43,365 nucleotides of DNA from a virus. Its lineage: Duplodnaviria; Caudoviricetes. The notes beneath the pieces are model-generated. The model saw only the letters and a list, made by a program, of their open reading frames with translations, made no database searches and was not told where the DNA came from. Location of the stretch: positions 1 to 43,365 of the IMG/VR virus record IMGVR_UViG_3300016464_000180. The stretch is one strand, 5' to 3'. Shown here piece after piece: positions 399 to 43,041 of this stretch. Position 1 is the first letter of the stretch. Each line of letters begins with the position of its first letter. Position numbers and translations under genes: made by a program.

Positions 399-800
399 TT
401 AGACTGCGCCTTTGATGCGCTCCCAAACAATCGCTTGGCGACCGTAGCGCGTGCGCTTCCGTTCTCCGCTGTCGCGGACAAGTCCTAGCGTCACAAGCTC
501 ACTGCGCCTAGCGCGCAGGCCCGATGGCGATTGCCCAGGAAACATGTGCTGGTTTTGCGACCGAGCCAGCGCATACCAATCCGCGATCTGCTCTTCCGTG
601 CCGCGTCCGTAGTTGCTCAGGACACGCAGCACCGCTTCCCGCTTGGCAGTCAGGGCCTCAAGCGAACGAGCAGCTTCATGGCTAGTCTCAGGATGCTTGC
701 GCCGCGTGTGAACACGCATCAGCGCGTTGGCCATCTCCTGAATTTCGTGAGGATGAGCTTGGCCAGAGTTTGCGATTTCCAGCAGTCGTGCGGGTTGCAT
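399..800 (-). CDS. Putative winged-helix DNA-binding protein
   Basis: Start probably the ATG at 800 (MQPARLL), just after the upstream stop. Contains 'TRRKHPETSHEAA...SPSGLRARRSELVTLGLVRDSGERKRT..GRQAIVW', a common phage wHTH pattern. Confidence 0.6.
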   Translation of the reverse strand: MQPARLLEIANSGQAHPHEIQEMANALMRVHTRRKHPETSHEAARSLEALTAKREAVLRVLSNYGRGTEEQIADWYALARSQNQHMFPGQSPSGLRARRSELVTLGLVRDSGERKRTRYGRQAIVWERIKGAV

Positions 801-801
801 G

Positions 802-954
802 TCAGTCCTTGTCTTTCTTCTTCTTGCGCGCACGCTTGTCAGCCTCGACAAACTCATGCGCAACCGACAACGGGATCTTCTTTTTCTTCCTGATTTCAGG
901 ATTGTGCAGAACAGCCTGCATCAAACGACGTTGGCTTTCAGATTTGCTTGGCAT
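802..954 (-). CDS. Small basic phage protein (50 aa, not in ORF track)
   Basis: Manual translation MPSKSESQRRLMQAVLHNPEIRKKKKIPLSVAHEFVEADKRARKKKKDKD*. It resembles a recurrent 'MPSKS..Q.RLM.AV.HNP..IP.SV..EF..AD' phage family and abuts the next gene. Confidence 0.65.
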   Translation of the reverse strand: MPSKSESQRRLMQAVLHNPEIRKKKKIPLSVAHEFVEADKRARKKKKDKD

Positions 955-956: not shown

Positions 957-1440
957 AAAAAAAACCAGTGGGTAAGCGAGGTGGTTAGGGAAGAAGGAGA
1001 GCTTAGCTTTTACGCGGTGTCCGCAACCACTGGCGAGTGTAAAACAACCTGGGGGTCCGCCAACACCTGCGGGGTTGATCCATTCCTTTCGGTCAGGTCC
1101 GCATTTGTTACCGCCCAGGCCCCGAGAACATCTCGGGGAATGCGATTAAATTCCCGTAGAAGCAGTGATTCATGCGGCGCAATCGAACACCGTGCCTGGG
1201 ATCTCCCCAGGCAACACTCTGCTCCTACGGGCGGGAGGGGCTAGCGGTCCGCTTGATTTGCTACTTACGCAGCAAACCCCCTCAACCGCTAGCTGGTCTA
1301 ATTCTTAAAGAACTGCTGGGGTTGCCCCCAAACTCAGTAAAAAGTTTGGCCCCAGCCCCAGGGAAAACCTGGGATGGAATCTGGAGCCTAACCGTCTCGG
1401 TCAAGCCGATTAGGCCCCAGCCCCAGAACCATTCTGGGAA
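957..1440 (-). ncRNA. Candidate large structured non-coding RNA
   Basis: Dense stems: 1381-1394/1407-1420, 1153-1165/1219-1231, 1240-1248/1285-1293, 1257-1276, 1120-1138, 1193-1213, 965-971/1027-1033. Mismatches read as G-U only on the minus strand. GNRA loops are present, it ends in U8, and there is no credible ORF. Confidence 0.7.
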
Positions 1441-2213
1441 GATCCTTGGCGACGATGCGAGGCCCAGTCAAACGTGATGACTCGACCTCCATCCTCTCGT
1501 ATTCTGTCAACAACGCGCTCGCCTAGGTAACCTTGGACCTCTTGTTGGTTCAGGTTGCTCAGGATCACGCTTGGTCTGCGGTTCTCATAACGCGCGTTCA
1601 GCACCTCAAACAAGAGGTTTTTCTCAAAATCGCTGCCGAACTGCACACCAATTTCGTCCAGGATCAGGAAGTCTACCTCGGTCATCGAGCGCAACGCATC
1701 GCTTTCGCGTTCTTTCGACTCGCGGTGCCAAGTATCCTTGATCCTGCGCACAGCCCTCTGAACGGTAGCGTAGCGCACCGTGCGACCTTCGCGCATGATG
1801 TGCAGCGCGATGCCCACGGCTAGGTGGGTCTTACCCGTCCCAGGCTTCCCCACGAACACGCAGCTAGTGCCCTTGGCCAACGCACGCGCAAAGTTCTGCG
1901 CGTAGTCTGTCGCGAACGCTAGCGCGCGCTCCTGGCCTAGGCTCTGGCAAACGTAAGTCTCTAGCGTCCGATCCTGAAACCTCAGAGGGATGCCAAAGTC
2001 CTCTAGCTTTGCGTTCCATCGGGCCGCTTCCTCGGATGCCTTTAAAGCCGTCTCCCTGGCTTCCTGTTGCGCGATCTCATCCTGGCTGCATGTAGGGCAG
2101 CCAGTCCAGCGATCGTTCAACAGCGGGCTTGCTAGGTATGCTCCGTGAGTTTCGCACTGCACCTGCCTGGGAGGCTGATGCAGCCGACTAAACGGATTCG
2201 TCCGTGGATTCAT
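1410..2213 (-). CDS. dnaC: DnaC/IstB-like AAA+ helicase loader
   Basis: Walker A GKPGTGKT, Walker B LILDEIG, 'NARYENRRPSVILSNL', 'GERVVDRI', and an N-terminal C..HG..CP.C motif. Confidence 0.92.
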   Translation of the reverse strand: MNPRTNPFSRLHQPPRQVQCETHGAYLASPLLNDRWTGCPTCSQDEIAQQEARETALKASEEAARWNAKLEDFGIPLRFQDRTLETYVCQSLGQERALAFATDYAQNFARALAKGTSCVFVGKPGTGKTHLAVGIALHIMREGRTVRYATVQRAVRRIKDTWHRESKERESDALRSMTEVDFLILDEIGVQFGSDFEKNLLFEVLNARYENRRPSVILSNLNQQEVQGYLGERVVDRIREDGGRVITFDWASHRRQGSSQNGSGAGA

Positions 2214-2958
2214 CGTTGCACCCGCAAGGTTGGCTGATGGTGTCCGTGAACAAGCTACGCTGCGCAGCTTCCTGCTTCAGAAAACTAGCCCAGGACCAGT
2301 TGCGCCCCAGGCCCTTGACCGTGTGCGTGTCCGCGTTCGCCTCAAGGGCCAGCGCGCGTTCCAGCAACTCGGGATGTTCCTGCTGCATCTGAAGAATCTC
2401 ACGCTTGCGCATGGCTGGGCAGAAAAAGCAGGAGGACTTACGCGGAACGGTAAACCCGTGATCCTGAATGATCTTGACGCAAGCGTCACGATCCATTCCC
2501 CACTCCACCAACGGGTAGCGGTAGCGGTATTCTCGGTCCTCGGTCAGCACCGCGCGATGCGACTCGCCCGCGTCGATGCCAATGCACTTCTCGATGCGCT
2601 CGCCAGCCTCCCAGATAGCCTTCGCATCCTCGCGGGTGCGCATGTAGCGATCCATTGGCTGCCTCTTCCACTTGACGCTACAGCCCTTGAACCCGTAGGC
2701 AAGGCTAGGAAGCTCCTTGCGCTTCAGGCAGTTGTCCTCCAGGGAATCGCCCTGCCCACGGTTCGCATTCGTCGTGATGACGAACTCGATCCCACGGGCC
2801 TTGCACCAGTCCTGGATCTCGCGGACATGCTGGTAGGTTTCAGGGAACTCGCCACCAGTGTCCGAGAACAGAATCAGATCAGGAGCCTGTCCACGCTGCA
2901 CCAGTCCCAGGAGCAGCGCGGTGCTGTTGACCCCTCCGCCGAAGCTCAGCACCCTCAC
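2188..2958 (-). CDS. PAPS reductase-family (PP-loop, Cys-rich) protein
   Basis: GTG start at 2958 overlaps the upstream stop (GTGA). Motifs SFGGGVNST, DTGGEFPETY, CSVKWK, GIDAGE, YPL, KSSCFFCP and a C-terminal CGC. Confidence 0.85.
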   Translation of the reverse strand: MRVLSFGGGVNSTALLLGLVQRGQAPDLILFSDTGGEFPETYQHVREIQDWCKARGIEFVITTNANRGQGDSLEDNCLKRKELPSLAYGFKGCSVKWKRQPMDRYMRTREDAKAIWEAGERIEKCIGIDAGESHRAVLTEDREYRYRYPLVEWGMDRDACVKIIQDHGFTVPRKSSCFFCPAMRKREILQMQQEHPELLERALALEANADTHTVKGLGRNWSWASFLKQEAAQRSLFTDTISQPCGCNDESTDESV

Positions 2959-3671
2959 AGGTCGAAGCTCCCATCCGCGTTCTGCTTCCCAAGCCCTGCG
3001 GTGTAGTCCACCGCATCGAATCCGGGCTTCTTGGCTACCCAGTCTGCCTTGAAGCCCTGCCAACCGCGCGTTGCGCATTCCGTGAGTGCTTGTTCCATGG
3101 TCCAGTTCGCCTTCTTAGCCTCGGATCTGATCCCGTCAAGCACTAACTCAGAAACAGGCGCACGCTTGGCCCGACGCAACGCCAGCCACGCCTCCCATGT
3201 GCGCTCCGTGACATCCTCGGGCCTAGTAGTAGCTATACTAGAGCTACTAGTAGTACTCTTCCTCTTCCTAGATCCTATGATCCTAGATCCTAGATCAGGC
3301 TGGAGGACTACAGGAGGACTCTGGAGTTCTCCGGAGTTCTCCGGAGGACTCGGGAGCTTGCTCGGGCTGGAATGGCTAATCTTCTGGTGCTTCAGCCACT
3401 TACAGATCTCCAGGTAGGTAGTGCCTTCGTGGACGTAGCGCACAACCATGCGCTCGCGCTCCAACTCGGCCATCCAACCCTCGATCAGTTCTCCAGCATC
3501 GTCATCAAACGGGTAAAGAAGGCTCCGGAGGACTCTGGAGGACGCGCGAGTTCTCCCGAAATCGTCTACGAGCGTAAACAACTGTAGGAAAAGCAGGCGA
3601 GCTTCCCGAGAGACTCGCCCAACGCTCTCGCTCTGGGGAAACTCAGGCTTGATGCTGCGAATCCTACCCAC
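2955..3671 (-). CDS. Phage replication initiator (lambda O-like role)
   Basis: 'MGRIRSIKPEF...DDFGR...WLKHQKI' N-terminus and 'W..LRRAKRAP...RGWQGFKADW' C-terminus. Lies upstream of dnaC and contains an internal repeat region. Confidence 0.85.
   Translation of the reverse strand: MGRIRSIKPEFPQSESVGRVSREARLLFLQLFTLVDDFGRTRASSRVLRSLLYPFDDDAGELIEGWMAELERERMVVRYVHEGTTYLEICKWLKHQKISHSSPSKLPSPPENSGELQSPPVVLQPDLGSRIIGSRKRKSTTSSSSIATTRPEDVTERTWEAWLALRRAKRAPVSELVLDGIRSEAKKANWTMEQALTECATRGWQGFKADWVAKKPGFDAVDYTAGLGKQNADGSFDL
3222..3356. repeat. Putative replication origin (iteron-like repeats) inside the initiator gene
   Basis: GGAG-starting ~10-bp units at 3302, 3313, 3323, 3333, 3343 and 3353; GATCCTA repeats giving 4 GATC in 3271-3296; a CTAGTAG-rich tract at 3223-3256. 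Confidence 0.7.
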
Positions 3672-3861
3672 GGCGAGCCTCCTGCATCAGCGCGCGGATC
3701 GCCACACGCCGTTGCCGCTCACGGGTCATCGAACAGGCCACGCAGCCACCGTTCGTGACGTAGCGTTCCGTCAGACCGCATCGACGGCACGCAGAACCTA
3801 GATACCTCTTCCGCCCAGCTTCAGCCGCAACTTGGCGAAGCTCCTGCTTTGGTGTGTCCAT
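3664..3861 (-). CDS. Small Cys4 (zinc-finger-like) protein
   Basis: RKRYLGSACRRCGLTERYVTNGGCVAC; first gene after the promoter at 3868-3896. Confidence 0.7.
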   Translation of the reverse strand: MDTPKQELRQVAAEAGRKRYLGSACRRCGLTERYVTNGGCVACSMTRERQRRVAIRALMQEARRG

Positions 3862-3960: not shown

Positions 3961-4209
3961 TCAGAAGGGAGTGTCGTTGCTCGGCGCGGTGCCCCTCTCG
4001 CGCGGCTCAAACATCGAGATCAGGACGCTTTCTGTAGACTTGCCGTCCTGAACTCCAGCAGGGTTGAACCACTTCGCCAGCATGAGGAACATGCCACCGT
4101 CATCGTTCTGCATGGCGGCCCCGACGTTCTGATAGCGGTTTTTCGTGGTGCCATCTTTCGTCTGGTATTGGCCAATCTTGACTGCGAGATCGTAAATCTT
4201 ACGCGCCAC
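3961..4209 (-). CDS. Small SSB-like protein
   Basis: Beta-rich 82-aa protein ('YQTKDGTTKNRYQNVG') with an SSB-type tail ending in DTPF. Confidence 0.55.
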   Translation of the reverse strand: MARKIYDLAVKIGQYQTKDGTTKNRYQNVGAAMQNDDGGMFLMLAKWFNPAGVQDGKSTESVLISMFEPRERGTAPSNDTPF

Positions 4210-4471
4210 TGTTTTCTCCGTGTTGTTGGGAAGGCTCGATCATAACCGGTGCTTCGCGCATCGCACGACCTTTTTCTTCCTTCTTGCGCAGACGCAGCAG
4301 CTTGATGCTCTTGATCTGGCAAGCTCGGCAGTTTCCAGTGCTGACGTAACGCTCCAAAGCACCGCACTTTTTGCACGGCTTGCCAAGGTAGAACTGGCGA
4401 CCGTCACGCGCCGCGATGAAGCGTGGCGTAAGGGCAGAATCGGTAAGACGCGGCGGCAACTTATCGTCCAT
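4199..4471 (-). CDS. Small Cys4 protein, paralog of 3664-3861
   Basis: Start ATG at 4471; RQFYLGKPCKKCGALERYVSTGNCRAC. Confidence 0.65.
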   Translation of the reverse strand: MDDKLPPRLTDSALTPRFIAARDGRQFYLGKPCKKCGALERYVSTGNCRACQIKSIKLLRLRKKEEKGRAMREAPVMIEPSQQHGENSGA

Positions 4472-4688
4472 ACTTGCGCTCCCAGGGCATCCTAGTCTCA
4501 TCCTGGATTCGATCCGCCAGCGTGCCCAACGCACGGATCTCCTCCATCTTCTCCTGAAATGGAGAAAGGATTTTAGGCCTGCGCGCCTTCGCGCACGGCT
4601 CGCAACGCTCGCTGCTCCGGTAGGCTGGCGCGAGCCAACGGACCCCGCAGTCTGGGCAGCAGTATTCTCTCTTACGTCTAGGTGCCAT
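4461..4688 (-). CDS. Zinc-ribbon hypothetical protein
   Basis: CPDCG...RCEPC; overlaps neighbouring genes in operon fashion. Confidence 0.6.
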   Translation of the reverse strand: MAPRRKREYCCPDCGVRWLAPAYRSSERCEPCAKARRPKILSPFQEKMEEIRALGTLADRIQDETRMPWERKYGR

Positions 4689-7966: not shown

Positions 7967-8051
7967 CAAAAAGGACGCAGCATGGATCGAACTCAAGAAG
8001 AAGGCAGCGAAGAAGCTGGGCCTTATCAAGAAGCCGTCCGCTACGAAGTGA
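7953..8051 (+). CDS. Very small Lys-rich protein (32 aa)
   Basis: GGAGG upstream; MSNTDKKDAAWIELKKKAAKKLGLIKKPSATK*; TGATG coupling to the next ORF. Confidence 0.4.
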   Translation: MSNTDKKDAAWIELKKKAAKKLGLIKKPSATK

Positions 8052-8242
8052 TGGCTCCGTTGGAACGGTGGCTGCTGTATTTCTTTGCAGCAGCCGCCGT
8101 TGCCATGGCGATCTATCGGATCGAGAGTCACCGATCAATACGAAGTCAATTCAGTCCAGGTAACAGTGGCACCCCACTGCCAAGTTCCAGTGGCTGGAAC
8201 AGTAGCTCGCAGAACAAACCCTTCTTGGAACGCAAGAATTAG
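8051..8242 (+). CDS. Small putative membrane protein
   Basis: Hydrophobic WLLYFFAAAAVAMAIY segment; its 3' end overlaps the convergent gene. Confidence 0.35.
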   Translation: MAPLERWLLYFFAAAAVAMAIYRIESHRSIRSQFSPGNSGTPLPSSSGWNSSSQNKPFLERKN

Positions 8243-10195: not shown

Positions 10196-13100
10196 TTACC
10201 TGTTCGTCGGAACTCCAGTCCCGGTCGCCAAACCTCTGGTGTATTCCACAAACTCAGGGAGATACGAATTCCTTGACGAGTAGAAGCCACGGTCCTCGTC
10301 AAGCATGTAACTGGTCGGGCGGGCCAGCACGCTGGTGGGGATGCCAGAGATCATAGCAATAAACGTCGCCCAATCCTTAACGTCTTGGCCACGGATCTCA
10401 CGGCCAGGATCGGTTATGAGATCGTAGACGCTGGCCAAGCCACGGCGCGAGGCCTCAAACGCCCCGAACACAGGAGTCGTTCCCAGCCTGTCGTTGTATC
10501 GCTTGTTGTCAAACGAGTTGATCGCAAGGTTGGCAACCGCACCAATCTGAGGCAGACCACCAGCCACGCCCGAGAGCGGAGCCAGGACCAGCGTGCGGAA
10601 CCAAGTCTCACTCACACCGTCCATGTCCTCGTCATCGCCAATCTCGCCACGCATCGTCTCCGAGATCAGGTTGCCAATGGCCAGCGGCAGATACAGACCG
10701 AAGAACACCAGCCCCATAACCCTGGGGCTAGCGCGCAACATGCCCATGTCTTGCACCAGCGTGCGCGCCTTCCAGCCTGCCGCGTTCATCATCACGATGA
10801 ACACCGTCTGGAACTGCGTGAACAACTGCGCCCAGACCGTGCCAGCTTCCGCCGTGCTAAGATCCTCAGCAAAGCTGCCGCCCTGAGTTAGACGGACGAT
10901 GCTGTCCGCGTCAGCCGCAGCGATCTTCTGAGCTTCCTCAATCGACAGGCCACGGCCCTTCTTCTCCATCGCCTCGTTGAACGCACCAATCCAGGTGATG
11001 CTGTCCACGATGTTTTGCGCGCCAGCCTGGAGAACCATTCCGTTGTTCAACGCCCACTTCTGGAAGTTCTTGTAGGCGTTGGGACTACGGACAACTTCCT
11101 CAAGCTGGTTCATCATCTCGGTCATCTGGTTGTCGAACTTCTCGGCCATGGCCGGAGAAAGGTCCGAGATGAACTTGCGCGCAGCCTTGGGATCCTTGCC
11201 CCAGATCACCAAAGCCTTCGCCAACTGAGCCTTGGGAACTCGGGTCGAGGACACGGACAACCCCGTGAACTGCTGGAACATAACGTTGAGACTCAGAGCC
11301 AGCTTGTCCAAGCCAACGTTGCGGCGGATGCGCCGGACGATCTTGTCCAGCGGGTTGTTCGTAGGAGTCTGCGTAAGCTGACGCACCGTGCGCCCCATCC
11401 ACGGGATGAACACGTTGCGCATGATCGCTGGGTCATACGCATTCAACGCGCCCTGCAAATCTTCCTGGGTGAACACCTTGGAGAGATCATGCAAGATCGG
11501 CTGGAGATGCGTGTAGAACAGCACATCACGGATGTGCATGGGCAGGCTGTTGATGTTGGTTACACGCGGCAGCGCACCCTTCTTGACACGCTCCTTGGTA
11601 AACCCATCACGGGCCTTGGGCATACCATTGGTGAACTGCTCGTTAGCCTGCGCCTTCAGTTCCATGATGTCCCCGATAGGCGTGGCATCCTTGTCCACCG
11701 CTGCCGGGACGTAGCCACCACGAAACGTTCCCAGGCTGTTCACAATCTGGCCATGCTTGACCAGCTTCATGTTATACCCGTTGACGCGGTAGAACGCCTT
11801 GATAGCACCAGGGGTTAGCTGGTCCATCAACTCGAAGATCTGCTCAGCAGCCTTAAAGTGCTGCTCAGTCAAGACCTTCTCCTTAATCATGCGCTCGATG
11901 AAGTTGCGCAGATCGGTCGTATCGAGGTTGCCCTCATCATCATACTTACCCCAAGTCTGCTGGGGATCGTTGACGCGGGTCTTACCCATCACCAACTTCT
12001 CCAAGTTCTCAGGGTTGCCCATGTGCAGGACCACATGCAACAATTCCGAGATCAGAGGGTTGTTGGGATCCTCACCAAAGACATGACCACCAAGCTCAGT
12101 AGCAACAATCTTCTGCCCATGGCGCATGTCAATGTTGGCCAGGATGCCGGACAGTTGCTTGATCTTCTGTGCAAACTCACCACGGGCCTTGACCGCGTTA
12201 TCCTTGACCCAGCGATAGACCAGCAACTGCCACTCGCCTACCTGCTGGCCGTCAAGGTGTTCCATGACATGCTCCGCCCTGGAGGCTAGAGCCGCGTAGC
12301 TCATAATCCCCGAGGCAGACTTGCCAGCCCCAACGGGCTTGTCCATGCGGTCCAGAACCTTGGCCGTAAGCGCAGCCGAGACTTCCTCGACCGAACGCTT
12401 CTGGCCACCAAGCTCCACCACCCGCTCATCGGCAGAACGGTTCCACAGCCCCTTGATGCGATCCATCAACTGCTGCATCTGTTCAACCGTAAGCTCACGG
12501 TAGAGCGGGCCAACTCGGTTGCGCTTGCTGCGACCAGCCGCAGCCCCACGCTTCTGGGCCTGCTGGCTGATCTTCGTCGCCTGCTGCGTAGCCTCAGACA
12601 GCAACTGCTCAACCTGGGTAGCAAGCTCAGGCGCGTAGATCCGCATTGCCTTGACCGCTTCGGTCACAGCCTCAACCTGCTTTTCCGTGCCGAAGCCAAA
12701 CGCAGCCGCGACACCACGGGCCGCGATAGCCATGTTGAAGTCCCGGCTCTTGGCCATGTCCGCACGGCTCATGCGGAACATGTCCTGGATCAACTCCTTG
12801 AAGCTGTCCATTTCCTGCTGGAACGCGGTAGCCTGCTCAGCCATCGCAGCCTGAGTTAGCTCGCCACGCTTCTGCTCAATCGCTTCCAAGCTCTGGCCAC
12901 GGGCCAACGCCTGCGTGGTTCCACGACGGCGCATACGGGCGTTAGCTTCAAAGTAACTGGGCAAGGCATCCTTGACCAAGGTCTTGCCGATTAGCTCAAT
13001 AGCGACCTCCTGGGCCGCGCGCATGATCGTGGCAACCGTGGTCCTAGGCCCTTCCGCCAGACGCTCAGCCTTGCGGATGTGCTTGTTCAGTTGCTTCAGG

Positions 13101-16100
13101 TTGCTGTTAATCTCAGCAAGGCGACCCTTGTTCTGGCCCTCGACAGCCGAAAGCTCAGCCTGCAACGCGGTCATCCGCGCACCATCGTCCGTAGGCTTAC
13201 GCTTCTCCTTGGTGATCTGCTTCTTGATGTCAGTTTCCTTCTGACGCAAGGCATCACGCTCCTCACGGAAAGACTTCTCCGTGTTGAGCAGGCTCTCCAG
13301 TTCCTTCTGCGCCTCCTGCATCTCAGCCATCAACTGCGGCTGGCCTGCGTCAGACTCCTTGCGCAGATTGCGGTCCAGCCCACGAAGCTCGATGGCCACC
13401 ATCTTCTGGCGCATCTTGCTGGAAAGCTGGGCACTGATCTCCTTCTGGATCTTCTTGGGGTCCAGGAGGTGCTTGTATTGCGCCTTCATCTCAGCATCAA
13501 CCAACTCAGAAACCTCAGTCTCCAGAGTAGGCGCGTTCAGCAACTCCATCACCATGCTCTTGGCATCGCTGTAGCCAAGGACCGTAGCAAGCTGGTCCGG
13601 GTCCACACCCTTGCTGTAGAGCATCCCAGTCTTGCCAGTGCCAAGCTCAGCCTCAACACGGGCCAAATTCTCCGGCTCGTCCTTGAACAACTCGCGGACC
13701 ATCTTGAGGTTCAACCGAGACTCGGACATCTCGATGACCGCTGCGGTTTCACCGTTGGTCATCTTGCCAGTGCGGATCAACGCACGGGCCTGATGGACAC
13801 GCTTGCGCTCAATCTCAGGCTGGATGCGCTTGGCAATCTCGTTGCGCTGCTTATCCACCTTCTCCTTGTGCGCGCGCAGCATCCGCATGTTCTTGCTGCT
13901 GAGCCACTCCATGCCACGGATGGTCTGCTCCGTAAGCTCGTCCGTAAGCTCGCCACCCATGCGGCTCTGCAACCGGAGAATCTCCAGCCATTCAGCCTCA
14001 GTGTTGCCCAAGGCAAGCCACTGCTCCTTGGTCATGTGCAGCGACATCAGGCTTTGGAAGTCCTGGTTCAAAGCGATCTGCTCATCCGTGGCCAACATGC
14101 GGTTCATCACTTCCGCGACCTCGGTCGTAAGGATGGGCAAGTCCTCCACAGGCTTACCAAGCTCCTGGAGTTCCTGACGGTAGGCAAGGTTCAACCGCGT
14201 GCGGATGTTGGTCCATGCCTGAGTCAGCCAACGACGGAACTGACGGAAGATGCCACGAAGCTCACGCGACGGGGCTTCTTCGCCAGAGATGAAGCCTTCA
14301 AAGTTGTAGGCCCAGCGTTCGTGGCGCACCGCGCGGTCTTCAGGAGACAGCGCGTTCCACTCGTCAAAGCTCTTGAGTCCAAACCACTTCAGCAGCGTCT
14401 GGGCATCGGCCACGATCTGCTGAGGAACGTTGGCAGTCTGCGCATCACGCATGAGCATGTGCAGCCAGATGTGGCTCATCTCATGCAGGAACGTGCTGAA
14501 GGTTGCATCCTTGGTCAACGTGATCTCCATGGTGGAGAGGTTGACGGTGCCAGCGATGTCTGCGGTTCGGCTGTAACGAATGTCTGGCGACTCTGCCTGG
14601 AATCGCTGCGACAATGAGATGACGTTGCCATCGTCGCCGCGAGTAACAACATCGGATGACTTAATCTGATCGGGAGAAAACACCACCTTGATGTCATCAA
14701 GGGGGCCACCATCGTAGGTGTTTTTGATTATAACGCTGTCGTGACCATTGGCTTGAGCCTCGCGGATAATGTCATAATAGGTTTTGTCACGATACTTCTG
14801 GCCCTTTTGATCGTGAATCAAAGGATTTCGCATTCGTAGCTTGACGCGAATCGTGGCAACATCGGTAACGGATTCAAACTCCGTCTCCCCAATGCTTCTA
14901 TCAAGCGCATTGCGAGCCCGCTCTACAGCCTGCAACACTTCGGCTTCATTGCTGGCCTCGTCTGCGTTGAACTCGACATCATCGAGCACTTCGTTGGCGT
15001 ATCGATAAATACGCTCAACAAAAGCGTCTGGATCAAGCTCATCCATAGAGTCCGCCGAGAAAGCTTCGTCTCCAAGGTCGCGCTCAAAATCCAGGTCTTT
15101 GGACACTCCGGGAGGAACGACATCAAAAACATCGGCAAATGCCGACCGAGCCGCGCTCGAAATATCCGATGATGATTCTTGGTTAAGAGTTTTTTGGCCA
15201 TAAGCGCGAGCTGTTTTCTCTGAGCCAAAAAAGAACCCTAACGAAGCACTAGCTGCGCCAGTGTTTTTCCCGCGCATGGAGGGATCAAACCTTCCTCCCT
15301 CCAAAACGCCAAGTGCCAGACCATGCTCGCCATCTTCATTAAACCCAGCAGCCTTAGCCGCAGCGTCAACCATCTCCTGCGCTGCCTTCATGTCGCCACG
15401 GTTAACAGCATCTAGGTAGGCTGCATCGTTGGATGCAGTGGCTCGGCTACGAAGTGTGTCTTTACCAATCGGCAAAGTTTCAGTAGCCGAAACCTGATCC
15501 CCATTTAGATCAGTCCACTTAGGCTTAACCCATACTTCAGTTTTAGTAACTTTTCCAATAGCCGCTTTTTTAAGAAGCGAAATCAATCGCTTATGCTTTA
15601 CGTTGCCAGATTCTGTGAAATAGAAAACATCTCCAGCATCTAAGTCGCGCGGCTGCTGAAGACCAAAATCCATTAGTTCAATAAGTTCAAATTCTTCATC
15701 GTCGGATAGTTTGCTCCTGTTGAGGACTTGGTTGTTCATCAACCCTTTACCTCCAACGGTGTATCTAATACCTTTGATATATCCGTCTGGAGGAGTAGCA
15801 GTGGCTCGGCTAAACAGCTTTTCGCTCTTCTTGCCGTAGACTGGATTCTTGGCCAAGACAAGAGGCCCAACCTGGAGAACCATCTCTGCCTTGTCAATCG
15901 GCTCGCCAGTCTTGCGGTCCCAGAAGTAGCTGTGGATCTCAGGGTTGAAACCAACCTGCACCCACTCAGGGCTGTTCAAGACTTCCTTGGCCATCGCCTG
16001 GACTTCTTCAGCCGTCATGGGTTGCTTGTCACCGTTGACAACAGCGGTCCAGTCTTTTGTTGTCTTTGCCTGCGCGATGTCAAAAGACTTTTGTTCGCGC

Positions 16101-19100
16101 GAAGCAAAAGTAACGTTGTTAATGGCAACCGCGTTGGTGTAGGCAAAAGGCCCGCGGACGTTTGCACTACCACCCTTAGTAGCTTCGTGAACAGCTACAA
16201 CCCAAGTCTTGTGAAACTGCCACGAAGGAATGTCAAGACGAAGAGCAACGCGCATCCCGTCTTTAATGGTGTCAACCTTGGCAATCTTGGTTTTATCAAG
16301 CCTGCCAACCTTCATCATGGCATCAACGGTTGTGAGGCTTGGGACTTCAGCAAATTCCTTAACAGGCCTCAAGCGAGCAACGGTTGCATCCCATTGGTCG
16401 CGGGTGATCTTTCCAACTGCCAGCTTACGAGCTTCACGCTGAAGTTCCGTAAGCCCTTCTTGGCCAAGAAAAGCTGCCAACTCTTTGGCGTTATACTTAG
16501 ATACGTCTTGTTGCTTCCTCTGCTTCTTTGGCTTTTGCTCCGTTGCCTTAACTTGCTTATTGGCAGCGATAACTTCAAAGCCATATTCCATGCGGATGGC
16601 GTTGATCGCTTTCAGTGCTGGTTCAAAAGCACCAAGATCCGAAGCCGTTTTGATCTCTTCGTCAAAGGCTACATCGTAAAGCTCTTGATCGGTTGGTGCC
16701 CTTCCAAGCTCAGGGAACATCTGAGCATCAAGGTCCAAGCCTAGCTTATTCAGCCTGTCCAACATGCCTTCCAGCTTGGGAAGGTTTTGATCTGGACCGT
16801 AAGCCAAGTAGGTGCCATCAACTGTGCCAGCACCAACTTGCTGCGCAGGCCCAGCAATTCGTTCGTTGGTGTTGACTCGCCCCATGTGGATGGGGATGCC
16901 ACGATTCTGAGCCTCGACAAACAGTTTGCCCCATGCGGCAGTCTTTTCTGCGGAATCAAACTTTCCGATCTTCCAATCGGTTGATCCGCCGATGAACAAC
17001 ACATCGACCAAATCCCACTGGATCTGATCCATCATGTTCTCAAGCCCGTCTTGAGCAGCTAGGGCAACAGGCAGGCCTTGAGACTTGATCCAAGCTGCCC
17101 ACTCGGGAAACTTGGCAAGAGTGGCCGCTGCATCACCAACAACGTCTGGTGCAACGACGAACAACGTCTTGCTCTTGTTGCTTGGATTCGCAGCAATAGT
17201 CTCTACGAGCTTGCGGAACTTGCTCTCACTAAACGGAATAGTTTTGCTAAATACCCCGTTGTCAACCGCGATGAAGCCGTAGTTCTCAGTCTTGTTAACG
17301 TAGCTAGGTATCAAGGGCGTAATCAGAAGACCGATGTCGCCTCGTTCTTTAGCCCTTGCAGCGATGTTATCGTTGTGCTTGCCACTGATGTATCCAGTGC
17401 CAAGACTGTTGGGATTGCCCTGACCTGGAACCTTGTCCCAGGCATCAAGCCCAGGCTTGCGAGTCCAACCTGTATCTTGCTGTTTCTTCTGAGAAATCAG
17501 CTTGCTAGGCTCAAGCTCGTAACGCCATCCGCCGTAGGTTCCGCGTTCAGAAGCTTTCCTACGCCAGACGGCAGTCTTGCCATCTTCTTCGATCTTGCCA
17601 ATAGCATATTGCCAAGCATCGCTTCCGTTGGGAACGGATTGCCATGGCACTTCTGTTCCTTCGACTCCATCGACAAACAGCTTTAGCGGAGCAGCTTCTT
17701 GTTCTTGCTGCTGCTGTTGCTCTTGCACCTGCTGAATCTCTTCTTCAGCAGCTTGCAGGACTTCTTCCGCGATCTGCTCAACCGTAGGGATGACCGGATC
17801 GGCAGCTTGCTCAGGTGCAACCTCAGGCTCTACCTCAGGCACAGCAGGTTCAATCTGCTGCTCCTTCGCCTGCTCTTGCAGCAGGTAGTTGTTCGTATAC
17901 TGCGCCCAAGCCAGCAGGTTCTTGTATTCGTCACTCTCTCGATCCATGCCCTCCAGCAAGGTCTTAGCCTTGTCTAGATCCTGCTCTAGCTCTTCCAGGT
18001 AGGCTTCGCGCGTCAGGCCACGGACACGTTCCGATTCCGTCTTGAGATCAGCCTCCAGGCGCACAAGCTCTTCCTGGCGCACATCAACGCCCTGCAACCG
18101 CTTGGCAGCAGCCGTGCTGAGCGGAGTCTTAGACGCGGCAGACTCCTGGTCAAAAAGCTGCTTGGTGATGCTCTGCCGTTGCGAGTCCTGTTGGAACTTC
18201 AGGCTTTCCGGGGCCACCAGTTCCGTGACCTCTTCCTCAGCCTGCGGGGCCGCTTCAGGCTCAGATTCCTGCTGCGGCTGGGCAGGAGCCGCTTCCTTCG
18301 GCTGCTCCGTGGTGACGGTAGGTTGTGGCGATTGGACTACCGGGGCTGGCTGCTCAGCAAACTTGATCTGCTGGCCCTTTGACTTCGGACCAGTGATCGT
18401 AAACTCATCCTGCTTGTAAGCATCAATGATGCTCATCGGGGCACCTTCCGTGCCCATGCGCTCCGCGCGCACCGCGTAGTAGTCAGCCGTGACCTGGGCC
18501 AAGAACCGACGCTGCTGCCCCGTGTATTGCGGGACCACCTCCAGCTTGCGCTCGATGTCGCGCCTCACCTGATCGTATTGCTTGACATACTTCTGGCCAC
18601 GGCGGGCCTGGATGGACATGGATTGCGTGCGCAACTGCTCCGCAACCATGCGCTGCTTCTGGGCTTCCTCCCATGAAATGCCCGTGTCGCCATCCATCCC
18701 CTCGTCAACAATGCGGCCACGCTTGAGCAGTTCCGTGTGCAGCCCAAACTCGCCACGGGCCATCAGGGCTACGTCTGCCACGCTGATGCGGATGTCCGCA
18801 CCAGTCTTGTCCGCAGCATCCAGTTGCTTGGCAAGATCCGGGAACCTGTCCCGGATGGCCACAACGAAGTCCGACTGCTTCAGGCTGGCATCCTGCTTTT
18901 GCGCTCGCGCGTAAAGCGCAGCCATGGCTTCATCGAACTGCTTGCGGTTTAGAACAAGCTCCGCCATGCCGTTCTTCTCGGCAAGCTCAGCCACCTGATC
19001 CGAGTAGGCATCCGGTGCCAGCCTGGACACATCGGTCCCACGGGTGAGATCAATCGTGTTCATCAAGGCTTGCGCGCGGCCCTCAGCCCGCGACAGCCGG

Positions 19101-20314
19101 GAGTTAGTCGCGGACACATCCAGGGCAAGCCCAGGAAGGCCCAGCAGCGTCATGCCCTGGAACGTCTCGATGGCAACCGCAGCGATGCGTTCCGCGATGC
19201 TCTGCGTCCCCTGGGCTGTCTGGATCGCCTGCTGGTATTCCTCCTTGGAGATCGCGCCAGCCAGACGCTCAGCCAGGACTGCGCTGACTTCCTGGCCAAC
19301 TTCCTCAAAGTCTTCCGCGATTACGCCACCAGCGTATCGGCCCACCGCACCCATCTTGGTGAAGTTGCCGAACAGCATCTTCTTGGCTGGGTCCATGCCC
19401 AGCTTGGTCAGCACCGTGGGAGAGATCGCGCCACGGACAGCCGAACGCAGCGAAGCTGTGGTGACACCGAACACACCAGCCGTAAGAGCCGTGGAAAGGG
19501 CACCGTGGAACAGGCCAGCAGTCTTCGCAGCATCAGGGTCATAACCCTGGTCGATCATGTCCTGAACAACGGAGCCAGCCTCCGTCATAAACGTCTGCTT
19601 GGCGGTGCCAAGCGAAGTGCCCCAGTAGGCACCAGCAGCAGTTCCTCCTGGGCCTGCAAGCGAACCAAGCAAGCCACCCGCCGCAGCCCATGCGACCGTC
19701 TCCGGTCCCATGTTATACATCTGCCCAAGCATCTTGCCTGCGGCAGCGATCCAGTTCCCGTTAGGGCTAGGAAGAATCTGTAGCTGCTTCTTCAGTTGCT
19801 GGTATTGAGTCTCCTCGTCTTCGGACAACTTGAAGTAGTTACGCTTAAACGAGAGCTTTCCGTATTCGTCCTCGACTTGACCACGCTTGGTAGAGCCAGC
19901 GATGCGCTCGCCCATGCTCCAAGCTGCCGTGTCCCTACGCAGCAACTCAGCGTTCTCATAATCCTTGAGACGCTCGAAAAGCACAGGGCTTTCCTTCTGC
20001 ATCGTTGCAAGGTTGACTCGCTGCATGTCCGTGTATTTTTGCATCTCCTGAGCATCGGTAGGCTCAGGCAGGCCAGCCAACCGCTGGCTACGACGGAACG
20101 CCACAAGCTCAGGGCTGTCCTTGCCAGTCTCCTGGAAGCTACGCAGTGCCGCGTTAAAGCTGGCTTGCTGGATCGCTTCCTCGTTGCGAAGCATCTCAGC
20201 AACGCCCTTCATCCCTGGATCGACGTAGGGGATCTCCTTGGGCACTACATCAAAGAGTGCCGTAGGTGACTGCGCGGGCTGCTGGGGAGACTGCGGTTGC
20301 GGCTCTTGGAACAT
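10196..20314 (-). CDS. Giant polyvalent internal virion/ejection protein (~3,370 aa)
   Basis: Start probably the ATG at 20314, right after the upstream stop. Third internal-virion position. Contains a TGT/DpdA-like segment, an ART-PolyVal-like segment, a HEMSH metallopeptidase motif (~14471-14485) and a helical C-terminal region with 'RGGYVP' and 'LFTQFQT'. Confidence 0.85.
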   Translation of the reverse strand: MFQEPQPQSPQQPAQSPTALFDVVPKEIPYVDPGMKGVAEMLRNEEAIQQASFNAALRSFQETGKDSPELVAFRRSQRLAGLPEPTDAQEMQKYTDMQRVNLATMQKESPVLFERLKDYENAELLRRDTAAWSMGERIAGSTKRGQVEDEYGKLSFKRNYFKLSEDEETQYQQLKKQLQILPSPNGNWIAAAGKMLGQMYNMGPETVAWAAAGGLLGSLAGPGGTAAGAYWGTSLGTAKQTFMTEAGSVVQDMIDQGYDPDAAKTAGLFHGALSTALTAGVFGVTTASLRSAVRGAISPTVLTKLGMDPAKKMLFGNFTKMGAVGRYAGGVIAEDFEEVGQEVSAVLAERLAGAISKEEYQQAIQTAQGTQSIAERIAAVAIETFQGMTLLGLPGLALDVSATNSRLSRAEGRAQALMNTIDLTRGTDVSRLAPDAYSDQVAELAEKNGMAELVLNRKQFDEAMAALYARAQKQDASLKQSDFVVAIRDRFPDLAKQLDAADKTGADIRISVADVALMARGEFGLHTELLKRGRIVDEGMDGDTGISWEEAQKQRMVAEQLRTQSMSIQARRGQKYVKQYDQVRRDIERKLEVVPQYTGQQRRFLAQVTADYYAVRAERMGTEGAPMSIIDAYKQDEFTITGPKSKGQQIKFAEQPAPVVQSPQPTVTTEQPKEAAPAQPQQESEPEAAPQAEEEVTELVAPESLKFQQDSQRQSITKQLFDQESAASKTPLSTAAAKRLQGVDVRQEELVRLEADLKTESERVRGLTREAYLEELEQDLDKAKTLLEGMDRESDEYKNLLAWAQYTNNYLLQEQAKEQQIEPAVPEVEPEVAPEQAADPVIPTVEQIAEEVLQAAEEEIQQVQEQQQQQEQEAAPLKLFVDGVEGTEVPWQSVPNGSDAWQYAIGKIEEDGKTAVWRRKASERGTYGGWRYELEPSKLISQKKQQDTGWTRKPGLDAWDKVPGQGNPNSLGTGYISGKHNDNIAARAKERGDIGLLITPLIPSYVNKTENYGFIAVDNGVFSKTIPFSESKFRKLVETIAANPSNKSKTLFVVAPDVVGDAAATLAKFPEWAAWIKSQGLPVALAAQDGLENMMDQIQWDLVDVLFIGGSTDWKIGKFDSAEKTAAWGKLFVEAQNRGIPIHMGRVNTNERIAGPAQQVGAGTVDGTYLAYGPDQNLPKLEGMLDRLNKLGLDLDAQMFPELGRAPTDQELYDVAFDEEIKTASDLGAFEPALKAINAIRMEYGFEVIAANKQVKATEQKPKKQRKQQDVSKYNAKELAAFLGQEGLTELQREARKLAVGKITRDQWDATVARLRPVKEFAEVPSLTTVDAMMKVGRLDKTKIAKVDTIKDGMRVALRLDIPSWQFHKTWVVAVHEATKGGSANVRGPFAYTNAVAINNVTFASREQKSFDIAQAKTTKDWTAVVNGDKQPMTAEEVQAMAKEVLNSPEWVQVGFNPEIHSYFWDRKTGEPIDKAEMVLQVGPLVLAKNPVYGKKSEKLFSRATATPPDGYIKGIRYTVGGKGLMNNQVLNRSKLSDDEEFELIELMDFGLQQPRDLDAGDVFYFTESGNVKHKRLISLLKKAAIGKVTKTEVWVKPKWTDLNGDQVSATETLPIGKDTLRSRATASNDAAYLDAVNRGDMKAAQEMVDAAAKAAGFNEDGEHGLALGVLEGGRFDPSMRGKNTGAASASLGFFFGSEKTARAYGQKTLNQESSSDISSAARSAFADVFDVVPPGVSKDLDFERDLGDEAFSADSMDELDPDAFVERIYRYANEVLDDVEFNADEASNEAEVLQAVERARNALDRSIGETEFESVTDVATIRVKLRMRNPLIHDQKGQKYRDKTYYDIIREAQANGHDSVIIKNTYDGGPLDDIKVVFSPDQIKSSDVVTRGDDGNVISLSQRFQAESPDIRYSRTADIAGTVNLSTMEITLTKDATFSTFLHEMSHIWLHMLMRDAQTANVPQQIVADAQTLLKWFGLKSFDEWNALSPEDRAVRHERWAYNFEGFISGEEAPSRELRGIFRQFRRWLTQAWTNIRTRLNLAYRQELQELGKPVEDLPILTTEVAEVMNRMLATDEQIALNQDFQSLMSLHMTKEQWLALGNTEAEWLEILRLQSRMGGELTDELTEQTIRGMEWLSSKNMRMLRAHKEKVDKQRNEIAKRIQPEIERKRVHQARALIRTGKMTNGETAAVIEMSESRLNLKMVRELFKDEPENLARVEAELGTGKTGMLYSKGVDPDQLATVLGYSDAKSMVMELLNAPTLETEVSELVDAEMKAQYKHLLDPKKIQKEISAQLSSKMRQKMVAIELRGLDRNLRKESDAGQPQLMAEMQEAQKELESLLNTEKSFREERDALRQKETDIKKQITKEKRKPTDDGARMTALQAELSAVEGQNKGRLAEINSNLKQLNKHIRKAERLAEGPRTTVATIMRAAQEVAIELIGKTLVKDALPSYFEANARMRRRGTTQALARGQSLEAIEQKRGELTQAAMAEQATAFQQEMDSFKELIQDMFRMSRADMAKSRDFNMAIAARGVAAAFGFGTEKQVEAVTEAVKAMRIYAPELATQVEQLLSEATQQATKISQQAQKRGAAAGRSKRNRVGPLYRELTVEQMQQLMDRIKGLWNRSADERVVELGGQKRSVEEVSAALTAKVLDRMDKPVGAGKSASGIMSYAALASRAEHVMEHLDGQQVGEWQLLVYRWVKDNAVKARGEFAQKIKQLSGILANIDMRHGQKIVATELGGHVFGEDPNNPLISELLHVVLHMGNPENLEKLVMGKTRVNDPQQTWGKYDDEGNLDTTDLRNFIERMIKEKVLTEQHFKAAEQIFELMDQLTPGAIKAFYRVNGYNMKLVKHGQIVNSLGTFRGGYVPAAVDKDATPIGDIMELKAQANEQFTNGMPKARDGFTKERVKKGALPRVTNINSLPMHIRDVLFYTHLQPILHDLSKVFTQEDLQGALNAYDPAIMRNVFIPWMGRTVRQLTQTPTNNPLDKIVRRIRRNVGLDKLALSLNVMFQQFTGLSVSSTRVPKAQLAKALVIWGKDPKAARKFISDLSPAMAEKFDNQMTEMMNQLEEVVRSPNAYKNFQKWALNNGMVLQAGAQNIVDSITWIGAFNEAMEKKGRGLSIEEAQKIAAADADSIVRLTQGGSFAEDLSTAEAGTVWAQLFTQFQTVFIVMMNAAGWKARTLVQDMGMLRASPRVMGLVFFGLYLPLAIGNLISETMRGEIGDDEDMDGVSETWFRTLVLAPLSGVAGGLPQIGAVANLAINSFDNKRYNDRLGTTPVFGAFEASRRGLASVYDLITDPGREIRGQDVKDWATFIAMISGIPTSVLARPTSYMLDEDRGFYSSRNSYLPEFVEYTRGLATGTGVPTNR
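15435..15812. repeat. 15-bp direct repeat GCAGTGGCTCGGCTA flanking an in-frame 363-bp cassette
   Basis: Identical copies at 15435-15449 and 15798-15812, both encoding S-R-A-T-A. Confidence 0.85.
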
Positions 20315-20315
20315 G

Positions 20316-23300
20316 TTACTTAGGAAGTCCGTTCGGGAAAACCGACTTGTATGCCTTCTCGATAGTATCCTTCTTGGCCCGCCACTGCTCGGCAGCAGAG
20401 TAATCTCCGCTGTTGACAAGCTCGATCATCCGCTCAAGCTCTTCAATAGTTGGCGAACTGTATTGCTGTCGAGGCGAAGATGGAAACTCGTCCGGCTTTG
20501 CCATCTTCTGAATTTGCAGATTCATCTGCTCAGCAGCAATCTCCTTGCGCAGTTCTTCAATTAGCGAAACGCCAATAGGGCTAGGAGGGACCGCATCTCT
20601 GGTAGGAACGGTTGCACCTTTTGGCTTGTATGCCTCGTCTGACCTAAATGGGCCTACAAAGTTCCGCAACGCATCAATAGGCGTGTTGGCAAGGTGCCAC
20701 TCGTAAGAACCTTTGCGCCAAGTTGCTGAACGAACTTGAGCAGCCATCTGCTTGCGCTGCTCAGATGTTACCGCTGAGAGCTGCGCGCTAGCTTGAACGC
20801 TAGCTGTTGCAGCAGGATAGTTGTTGTCCTTAGCGGTGAGTTGCCTATGCCGTGCAACAAGCTCGGGAGGAACTTCAAGCCCCATGCTGTTAGCGACTTG
20901 ATTCAAAACATTAAACGCATCAAGACCTTTAATTGTCTGATACTTTTCTCTGTATCTTTGTTTTCCACCAATATCTGTCCACAAAGGACCAGACGTTTCG
21001 ATTGACCCAAAAAACCTTTGAGCTATTGGGTCGTTTTGTGGAATGCCATTTTTTGCAAAGCTTTCTAACTGAGACTCCGAGTATTTGATCTCTTTAAGAT
21101 CATACTTTGCGCCAGCATCAGAAGTTCTGCCGCGAAGTCCCATAGGTTCTCCGTAAGCTTTGTAAAACTTAAGTGCATCAGCATTAGCAACAATATTTCC
21201 AGCTTCGTTTTGCTTGTAACGATCACCTTCGCGCGTTTTCTCAGCAATACTTTCGCGCAGGCCTGGAATGCGTTTGATCTCGTCAGCGATGTTAAGCTGG
21301 TCAACCAAATCGGGAACAAACACCGACATATCTGGGTTGTCCACAAACCGCTGCATGTATTCACGCAGGCTTGCGGCACCCTGGCCCTTTAGACGCTCGC
21401 CAAGATCCGCCCTGCGACGAACGCGCGTTGCATATTCCTGTGGATCTTTCTCTCGCTGAGAAACGTTTTCGATCCACTTAGTAGCAATAGTCTGCTCATC
21501 AAGAGGGATCGGATCAGCCTTTTGAACGATGTAGCCAGCACCAAGACTTTCTGCTTCGGCCTGAGCATCAGCTACATTCTTGTGTAACGCAGGGTTTCCA
21601 GGACCTCTTTCGTGCAACCGCAACTGCGTAGAACCGTTTTCGTCTTGAACAATCTTGTAGACTCTAAACGGGTTACTATTTGCGTTGCGAATAGATGTGA
21701 CTATTTGATTTCGTTCCCACACTGGAATGTCGGTTGGCAGAACATCGGCATACTTATCAGTGTTAGGAATCGGAATCCTAAATGCTCCAGTCTCACCTTG
21801 AGCAAGCTCGTAAAGACGCTTTTGCTCTCCGTCAACGACAACGGTTGTCTTGTCGCGCTTTGCTAGAAACTCAGCAAACGTGACGTTTTTGTTGGCTGGC
21901 TCACTTTTAAAGGCAGACCACTGGGCCTGAATGTTTTCGTGCCATTTACTAAAGTCTTCTCTTGTTTCAAGAACAGAGCTTGAAAGACCAAACGTATGTC
22001 GATTTTCCTTGCGGAACTGGTCAAACAAAAGATCTCTATCGCTCAACGCTTGACGCTGCTCAGGAGTAGCCGACTTGTTAGACTCGCTAATCCTGGCTTG
22101 GAACAACTTCTGATCTTCGTCAGAAAGTTGATACCTGTAACTCAAATCTACAGGCGTAAGTGAGCTGAACAATTCTGGATCGTTTTCCATCATGTCCAAC
22201 AGCCTTGCACGATCTGCTAGGTTGGTTTTCTGCTGGTAACCTTCGCGCACCCAAGTCTCAAACTTGGTGAGAGACTCCTCATCAAGCTGCATGTAGAGAT
22301 TCTTGTCCAGGCTCAGAAGAGCGTTGCCAGCACTCTGATCCTTTGGGAATCCCTGCCCTTGCGTGGCGGCACGGAAGAACGTCTTGGCGTTGTTAAGCGC
22401 GTTTAGCTGACTTTGTTCCTTGTTGTTCTTTTCTTCTGTGGCCAAGGAATTAATCATGCTAATAGTGCTAGCAAGATCCTCTTGGTCAAGTTGGCCAGCC
22501 ACAAACGCTGCACGGGCAAAGTCCTGCTTGTCCTTGATCGTAGGGAGATCGTCTCGGATGAAGATCGCACGCGCGATGTTGTTGGCTACCTGCTCCTTGC
22601 GAAACTTGGCCAGTGTCTCCTCTACCTTGTAGAGAGTTTCAGGATCAACTCGGCTACGGTTATTTTTGTCAGCAAGGAAGAATCGAGCTGAGTCGATGTC
22701 ATCCCTCTGAACCATACTGTTTAAAACGCCAGTGTAGACTCCGCGCTCGACGTTCTTCAGGTAGAGCTTGCCCTGCTCGTCATCAGGGTTGATGCCCTGA
22801 AACGACAGGTGTTCACGGGCTTGATTCATCAGGCCTGTGAATCGAGTCTGAAAAGCGTCTCGGCTGTCTTGCTTAGCTCCCATGGTGATGGCTTTAGCAG
22901 TCTCATCAGAAACTGCTCCAGTGCCATCAAGCATCTGCACACTCAGGGGAACTCCAGGGTTGTAGACACGCGATCCGAACTGGATCGCATCCTCCGCCAT
23001 GTTGTTGATGCGGCTTTCAGTCTCTTTTACCTTAAAGTTGTAGGCTTCGCGCATCACATGGAAGTTGGCTTGCCTGTCAACGTCCATCATGCGGCGATCC
23101 GCCGCGCTGCGGAAAGCCACCTTCTGCGCAGGGTTGGTCAAGCCAGCTTCGATCTCCTTGCGCTGCTTGGCCAAGTTCTCCTGGAAACTAGCGTAGCCAG
23201 TGATCGCATCCCTACCTTGCAGCGACTGGAACCGGACAGTTTCTTGATTAAGGAAGTTTCTCCACTTGTTGTCCGTTTCCGCCACAACGGAATCGTTCAC

Positions 23301-31666: not shown

Positions 31667-31682
31667 GTTAGCTCCTTGTAGA

Positions 31683-31704
31683 AGCTGGGGCCGAAGCCCC
31701 AGCT
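31683..31704 (-). other. UUCG-tetraloop hairpin (attenuator/stability element)
   Basis: AGCTGGGGC-TTCG-GCCCCAGCT directly after the stop at 31706. Confidence 0.75.
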
Positions 31705-31705
31705 A

Positions 31706-43026: not shown

Positions 43027-43041
43027 CCGCCCAGGAAGCCA

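What the first reader, a model, noticed from the sequence alone, without database searches (positions are those of the whole stretch)
957..1440. ~480-nt highly structured candidate ncRNA downstream of dnaC
Seen: an otherwise gene-dense phage leaves ~450 nt without a credible ORF, and the region is packed with helices: a 14-bp stem 1381-1394/1407-1420, a 13-bp stem 1153-1165/1219-1231 enclosing a hairpin, a 9-bp stem 1240-1248/1285-1293 enclosing UUUGCUGC-GUAA-GUAGCAAA, and hairpins at 1120-1138, 1357-1373 and 1422-1438. A closing stem 965-971/1027-1033 is followed by U8. Mismatches are G-U wobbles only on the minus strand, which also has GNRA loops (GUAA, GAAA, GCAA), arguing for selection at RNA level. 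Possible pseudoknots: GCUUGA(1401-1406)/UCAAGC(1251-1256) and GAGGGG/CCCCUC. I cannot match it by eye to tRNA, tmRNA, RNase P RNA or an intron. Inference: a possibly undescribed large phage RNA.
Basis: partly seen in the sequence, partly recalled or inferred. Interest (0 to 1): 0.85.

Follow-up and report, generated by a model that had tools for sequence, protein, structure and literature searches.

The report
New large structured phage RNA
A freshwater phage carries, between two of its genes, a roughly 480-letter folded RNA that its close relatives keep, that matches no catalogued RNA family, and whose job is not yet known.

Summary
The helices are real and read best on the minus strand (z -5.65 vs -4.29). 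There is no Rfam, tRNA/tmRNA or BLAST match. The host genome is a BPP-1/DC33-like freshwater podovirus.

No full-length homolog DNA could be fetched. Four indirect lines still show selection on an RNA:
- one two-sided change (A-U to C-G) in the 5' hairpin, read from DnaC tails;
- a 58-nt DNA fragment with a different hairpin but the same loop motif;
- spurious antisense ORFs over homologs, with a 71-codon invariant 3' core, pairing-compatible changes and a replaced GNRA hairpin;
- near-identical copies in runs of 12 studies.

Pseudoknot 1 is conserved in both halves but shows no covariation. Pseudoknot 2 is unsupported. Expression evidence is one short metatranscriptome contig (22).

Best reading: a stand-alone large ncRNA with a variable 5' and an invariant 3' domain, working like GOLLD/ROOL but not a member. 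Main rival: a cis-regulator of the downstream genes. The scan noted other orphan phage RNAs, none like this sequence.

The parts
957..1440 (-). Candidate large ncRNA, about 480 nt (exact ends not mapped)
   Evidence: homolog evidence
1421..1439 (-). P1, 5' hairpin; lies in or just behind the dnaC 3' end; pair 1433-1427 changes A-U to C-G in relatives
   Evidence: diverged 9-bp version in L115
1381..1420 (-). P2, 14-bp stem; loop carries the conserved CUUGAC(CG) motif, the 5' half of pseudoknot 1
   Evidence: stem in P0144 reached by 2 of 100 shuffles under the WC-only test
1315..1373 (-). P3, second hairpin-plus-stem module, a likely tandem duplicate of 1381-1438 (77% over 30 nt, spacing 65); P0144 is 15 codons shorter between the two PK1 halves
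1240..1293 (-). P4, 9-10-bp stem with a GNRA-capped inner hairpin; carries UCAAG (1256-1252), the 3' half of pseudoknot 1
1153..1231 (-). P5 three-way junction (13-bp stem, 8-bp hairpin, 6-bp hairpin with a T-loop-like GUUCGAU); start of the invariant core
1048..1138 (-). P8 hairpin and long irregular P9 hairpin; its tip 1097-1080 can be drawn as a purine-rich internal loop under a GAAA loop (resemblance to a tetraloop receptor is recalled, not confirmed)
957..1034 (-). P10 closing stem with a pyrimidine-rich loop (CUCCUU at 999-994) and a U tract of variable length, 2 nt before the next start codon
1410..2213 (-). DnaC-like helicase loader gene (upstream neighbour, overlaps P1 and part of P2)
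   Evidence: phrog_50 E 1.5e-73
802..954 (-). 50-aa basic protein, DUF3008-like (downstream neighbour)
   Evidence: phrog_16759; atlas 0.92 to a cluster with PF11450 in 37% of members
399..800 (-). 133-aa protein of unknown function, possibly winged-helix; 91-100% identical across the clade
   Evidence: phrog_1123

Best explanation
A stand-alone, protein-noncoding RNA of a freshwater podovirus clade. Shown: the fold, its strand and its conservation. Inferred: it is transcribed as the tail of the replication operon (RusA-like, rep, PAPS reductase, dnaC), cut free near the dnaC stop, and ends at the U tract. It folds into a variable 5' domain closed by a loop-to-internal-loop pseudoknot (PK1) and a nearly invariant 270-nt 3' core. 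It then acts in trans during infection as a compact scaffold or decoy, in the manner proposed for GOLLD and ROOL. PK1 and the GNRA loops could form between copies, giving an RNA oligomer, and the invariant core is the part a host or phage partner recognises. The trans action, the oligomer and the partner are inference only.
For: Minus-strand G-U asymmetry and z -5.65. Two-sided change in P1: of the 6 DnaC proteins whose tail reads through the hairpin, 4 have H..A (C-G) and 2 have N..S (A-U), none mixed; probably one event. L115 DNA has a different 9-bp hairpin and only 5 of 14 identical bases in the P2 5' strand, but the same 8-nt loop motif. P0145: 0 of 71 codons differ over 1005-1217 against 6 of 52 over the antisense of the 50-aa gene (Fisher p 0.005 for the run picked after seeing it; p 0.17 for the whole 965-1235). 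The substitutions at 1221, 1223, 1224 and 1240 all keep pairing on the minus strand (87 with 85). P0145 replaces the inner hairpin by another that can form 7 WC pairs under a GNRA loop (8 of 500 shuffles reach this). Both PK1 halves persist in P0144. Variable 5' and conserved 3' regions are also described for GOLLD (PMC12286853). One 151-nt contig of a metatranscriptome run lies inside it.
Against: No full-length homolog DNA, so no R-scape-type test. Back-translation tests are blurred by codon freedom, and 5 of 7 did not beat shuffles: P4 in P0145 104 of 200, P4 in P0144 83 of 200, P2 with G-U 46 of 100, P0144 inner hairpin 28 of 300; the hairpin tests gave 29 of 300 and 216 of 300. The two substitutions seen in real DNA (1082, 1094; runs X10, X13) break the MFE pairing at the P9 tip and fit only a hand-drawn alternative. 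The RNA contig has depth 2, was found with this query, and may be DNA. No promoter-like site was found in 200-2300 and the U8 end is not called as a terminator. No tRNA genes nearby, unlike GOLLD/ROOL. The neighbouring 133-aa gene is also very conserved, so part of the identity may reflect recent shared ancestry.
Confidence: 0.5

Rival explanations
1. A cis-acting control element (attenuator, antiterminator or translation switch) that sets read-through from the replication operon into the 50-aa and 133-aa genes, and possibly on towards the late genes.
For: P10 and the U tract end 2 nt before the AUG at 954 with no Shine-Dalgarno site between. The DnaC clade and the 133-aa gene occur on contigs of the same lengths, so the position looks fixed. 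The P2 loop has alternative partners by inspection of the sequence. All late genes lie on the same strand.
Against: 480 nt with many stable helices is far larger than an attenuator needs. No clean terminator/antiterminator pair was found. The U tract differs in length among relatives. Sister phages with the same late genes lack the RNA.
Confidence: 0.25
2. Two separate elements: a variable cluster of hairpins protecting or ending the dnaC message (1240-1440), and a smaller conserved RNA of about 270 nt (957-1231).
For: All MFE helices are local to one half. The halves differ sharply in conservation. No pairing between the halves is supported.
Against: The 5' half keeps both PK1 motifs and a GNRA hairpin across homologs, more than mRNA-end hairpins need. 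The RNA contig lies in the 5' half.
Confidence: 0.12
3. A catalytic RNA (self-cleaving or processing ribozyme) of an undescribed fold that trims the operon transcript.
For: Near-invariant core with multi-way junctions; it sits at an operon junction.
Against: No Rfam ribozyme or intron hit at E up to 10. No hammerhead core word. Flanking genes are whole, so it is not an intron.
Confidence: 0.07
4. A structured single-stranded DNA signal (primosome assembly or replication site) next to the helicase loader gene, or a decayed mobile-element remnant.
For: Next to dnaC. G-T pairs are tolerated in DNA too, and the minus strand also folds better with DNA parameters (-112.0 vs -104.8). Short internal repeats.
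Against: A GNRA loop is kept while its stem sequence is replaced. There is one copy per genome. Strong conservation argues against decay. Distant DnaC relatives have a gene directly downstream instead.
Confidence: 0.06

Closest known systems
GOLLD RNA (Rfam RF02032; PMC12286853, passages read)
   Same: Large phage-encoded structured RNA of unknown function; conserved 3' region and less conserved 5' region.
   Different: No model match (the direct search had no positive control). About 480 nt against many members over 800 nt. No tRNA neighbours.
ROOL RNA (PMC12286853, passages read)
   Same: Phage/prophage RNA with pseudoknots or kissing loops, no known protein partner, similar size class (659 nt in the solved example).
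   Different: No Rfam match; different hosts and gene context; oligomer formation untested here.
Polynucleobacter-1 RNA (RF01718; PMC2864571, table row seen)
   Same: Orphan structured RNA from freshwater Burkholderiales, the likely host group of this phage (terL 73% to Limnohabitans phage DC33).
   Different: No match at E up to 10.
tmRNA, RNase P RNA, SRP RNA, group I/II introns, small self-cleaving ribozymes
   Same: Size range, multi-helix fold, a T-loop-like word and GNRA loops.
   Different: No ARAGORN or Rfam hit; it does not interrupt a gene; hammerhead core absent.

Membership tests
GOLLD | Match to the GOLLD covariance model (conserved 3' domain) | tested here: not met
   No hit; one search also empty but without a positive control
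GOLLD / ROOL | Often near tRNA islands | tested here: not met
   0 tRNA or tmRNA genes in the 43,365-nt window
ROOL | Match to the ROOL covariance model | tested here: not met
   No hit among 4227 Rfam families at E up to 10 other than 5 chance miRNA/lncRNA/snoRNA matches
GOLLD / ROOL | RNA-only homo-oligomer (nanocage) | not testable with these tools
   Needs mass photometry or cryo-EM
tmRNA (one- or two-piece) | tRNA-like domain with acceptor stem plus tag reading frame | tested here: not met
   ARAGORN 0 genes; no Rfam hit
RNase P RNA / SRP RNA | Match to the family models | tested here: not met
Group I / II intron | Interrupts a gene; conserved catalytic core | tested here: not met
   dnaC is whole and ends at the same motif in relatives; no Rfam hit
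Hammerhead ribozyme | Conserved core word (recalled) | tested here: not met
   no Rfam hit
HDV-like / theta ribozyme | Nested double-pseudoknot topology with catalytic C | tested here: inconclusive
   A loose descriptor gave 17 overlapping hits, 11 on minus and 6 on plus, so it does not discriminate; no Rfam hit
Polynucleobacter-1 | Match to RF01718 | tested here: not met
Protein-coding gene on the plus strand | Conserved open frame with homologs | tested here: not met
   No Pfam hit; 1 of 4 and 1 of 5 candidates passed; P0145 switches between three window frames
Intrinsic terminator at the 3' end | Short GC-rich hairpin directly before the U tract | tested here: inconclusive
   Not called by the scan; the closing stem encloses 55 nt (85)

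The most novel reading that the evidence does not exclude
A new class of large phage RNA that self-assembles through PK1 and GNRA contacts, is bound by the basic 50-aa DUF3008-like protein encoded 2 nt behind it, and uses its exposed, conserved pyrimidine loop (CUCCUU, complementary to a Shine-Dalgarno site) to sequester host messages or initiation machinery at the switch from replication to late expression.
Probability: 0.1. Interest if true: 0.9.

Novelty: new variant of a known kind. Interest (0 to 1): 0.68.

Why it matters
Large, highly structured bacterial and phage RNAs are rare, and the described classes (GOLLD, ROOL, OLE) remain poorly understood in function while showing unexpected RNA-only assemblies (PMC12286853). 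A further class in a small podovirus without tRNAs, with a near-invariant 270-nt core and a fixed place between the replication genes and two unknown genes, is a ready target for in vitro folding, cleavage and cryo-EM tests. The phage group is widespread in fresh water: 20 of 24 listed runs, from 12 studies, hold part of the stretch.

Tried and rejected
Searches for homolog DNA that found nothing usable:
- blastn against phages and plasmids: no match.
- Exact or gapped DNA patterns in viral contigs: 4 hits, 37 hits, 112 hits, none a homolog by nhmmer, stem check or folding (part of the output was cut from view). Metagenome pattern: 0 (17). Genome patterns: 120 hits with no nhmmer match below E 0.24, 0 (84), 0 (114).
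- Neighbour proteins as bait: DnaC, 50-aa protein, 133-aa protein, terL, antisense frame. Only L115 belongs to the clade on the RNA side, and it ends 58 nt after the dnaC stop. Eighteen of the 23 distant DnaC loci were inspected downstream; all have ordinary gene-dense sequence.
- Covariance model R1 was built from the window sequence alone (aligned to its own copy L024), so it is insensitive. It hit only the window among 50 records and 59 sources; many records are fragments.

Rejected or left open:
- PK2: both halves are absent in P0145 and position 1236 changes in P0144/P0164.
- A third 6-bp pairing, 1044-1039/1013-1008, is at chance level.
- The tetraloop-receptor resemblance at the P9 tip is recalled; four papers searched for the motif letters did not print them.
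- A sigma-70 promoter at the P2 loop: none found.
- Lack of RNA-run coverage on the flanking genes is not evidence.
- Resemblances by eye to RNase P, SRP, group I P4-P6 and permuted tmRNA were dropped for lack of model hits.

Literature: searches found no description of this RNA (listings only). Fremin 2023 (PMC10690425): abstract, methods and supplement list read; three motif words and DnaC were not found in the 3 of 6 supplementary files searched, and the alignment archives could not be read, so a fragment of this RNA could be in them. Subscription journals are not covered.

Full report
Setting. The window is a 43,365-nt virus record. PHROG hits give a podovirus gene set: terminase, head-tail adaptor/portal, major head, tail and internal virion proteins. 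TerL is 73% identical to Limnohabitans phage DC33 and 60% to Bordetella phage BPP-1, so a freshwater betaproteobacterial host is likely (inference). The minus-strand operon runs RusA-like, small ORFs, replication initiator, PAPS reductase, DnaC-like loader (1410-2213), then the element, a 50-aa basic protein (802-954) and a 133-aa protein (399-800).

Observation. Folding z is -5.65 on minus and -4.29 on plus. The window 1241-1440 is the lowest of 216 genome windows, although the whole minus strand is biased low and other windows come close. Rfam, ARAGORN and BLAST find nothing. The 5' part holds two 58-nt modules of the same shape, 65 nt apart, probably a duplication. Pseudoknot-sized complementarities are at chance level in one sequence.

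Homologs. The clade is almost absent from the scannable collections (see Tried and rejected), so the evidence is indirect. First, close DnaC relatives at 73-83% identity exist. Most stop before the first hairpin, but six read through it. Four of these have His and Ala where the window and P0124 have Asn and Ser. The first bases of those codons are 1433 and 1427, which pair in P1. The code fixes those bases, so this is an A-U to C-G change on both sides, probably a single event.

Second, L115 (DnaC 81% identical) ends 58 nt after its stop codon. Those bases fold into a 9-bp hairpin of different sequence, followed by a diverged P2 strand and the same CUUGACCG motif.

Third, gene callers have annotated spurious antisense ORFs over homologs (P0144, P0145, P0164). 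P0145 matches the window translation over 71 codons (1005-1217), while 6 of 52 codons differ over the adjacent 50-aa gene, where the antisense frame exposes synonymous sites. The run was chosen after seeing it, third positions are not visible, and the test over all of 965-1235 gives p 0.17. The substitutions that fall in stems (1221, 1223, 1224, 1240) turn C-G into U-G or U-A, A-U into G-U or G-C, and G-U into A-U on the minus strand. In P0145 the GUAA hairpin is replaced by a different sequence able to form 7 WC pairs under a GNRA loop (8 of 500 shuffles). P0144 keeps both PK1 halves, 32 codons apart instead of 47, and its P2 region can form 13 WC pairs (2 of 100 shuffles). Five other tests and both did not clear the shuffles.

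Fourth, 20 of 24 listed sequencing runs, from 12 studies, hold part of the stretch. Four runs were laid. X10 covers 300-1865 with 77 differences and X13 covers 584-1396 with 14; only 40 of 112 difference rows were shown. The shown ones inside the element are 1082 and 1094, plus small deletions at 957 and 1002 and one just outside at 955. The two substitutions break the MFE pairing at the P9 tip. They fit an alternative drawing with a purine-rich internal loop under a GAAA loop; that drawing is mine and is not among the 8 lowest-energy folds. The metatranscriptome run X20 has one 151-nt contig at 1233-1380, depth 2: a weak hint only.

Architecture. The result is a variable 5' domain (P1-P4) with conserved PK1 motifs, and a near-invariant 3' core (P5-P10) that ends in a U tract 2 nt before the next gene. 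PK2 is not kept. A single-sequence covariance model finds no copy in 49 other phage records chosen by terL, DnaC or 133-aa similarity, nor in DC33 or zth2-2, and DC33 has no gap of this size. The RNA therefore looks restricted to one clade, within the limits of an insensitive model.

Mechanism. Nothing here shows function. I favour (0.5) a stand-alone RNA processed from the end of the replication operon and acting in trans as a scaffold or decoy. The reasons are its size, the sequence-level constraint on a 270-nt core, and the parallel with GOLLD's conserved 3' and variable 5' regions (PMC12286853, passages). Cis control of the downstream genes is the main rival (0.25), because P10 and the U tract abut a start codon that has no Shine-Dalgarno site. 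Two separate elements (0.12), a ribozyme (0.07) and a DNA signal (0.06) follow.

Known or new. It fails every membership test that could be run. It is best described as a new family within the broad kind of large orphan phage RNAs. Four literature searches (listings only) did not find it, and the alignment supplements of Fremin 2023 (PMC10690425) could not be read. Papers seen: PMC10690425 (abstract, methods, supplement list, 3 supplement files searched); PMC12286853, PMC2864571 and PMC3494683 (passages); PMC11571812, PMC2275092 and PMC7913685 (word searches only). Earlier scan notes describe other orphan phage RNAs but none similar in sequence.

Verdict. A real, conserved, structured minus-strand RNA element (my estimate about 0.85), probably undescribed, function open. 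Interest 0.68.

Noticed in passing
window 41900-43365 and 1-290: GC-rich segment (0.68 and 0.77 against 0.56-0.61 nearby) with short plus-strand ORFs, between the 133-aa gene and terS if the genome is circular. The close relative L035 has a GC-rich run of short ORFs at the same place, with no blastn match to the window there.
   Followed up: partly
window 10196-20419: 3407-aa protein with only weak Pfam hits, ART-PolyVal (E 0.0013) and Phage_L5_gp82; possibly a polyvalent virion-delivered protein.
   Followed up: no
window 2188-3078: PAPS-reductase-family gene wedged between the replication initiator and dnaC, overlapping both; perhaps a DNA-modification gene.
   Followed up: no
window 802-954; L039, L042, L048 and others: The 50-aa DUF3008-like gene lies downstream of terL in sister phages but behind the RNA here; the same sequence forms the N-terminus of two PHROG virion structural families.
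   Followed up: partly
window 3664-3861 and 4199-4534: Two small cysteine-rich paralogous ORFs hitting the same PHROGs (1081, 15231, 23777).
   Followed up: no
window 31641-31840, 31241-31440, 17441-17640, 8041-8240, 36241-36440: Other minus-strand windows with folding z of -5.6 to -6.0 (12 shuffles each).
   Followed up: no
window 28489-30540: 683-aa protein in the tail region with a C-terminal galactose-oxidase-like early-set domain.
   Followed up: no
L355 (PQ492659.1): Limnohabitans phage DC33 is filed under Inoviridae although it is 39 kb and encodes a terminase 73% identical to this podovirus; probably a misclassification.
   Followed up: no
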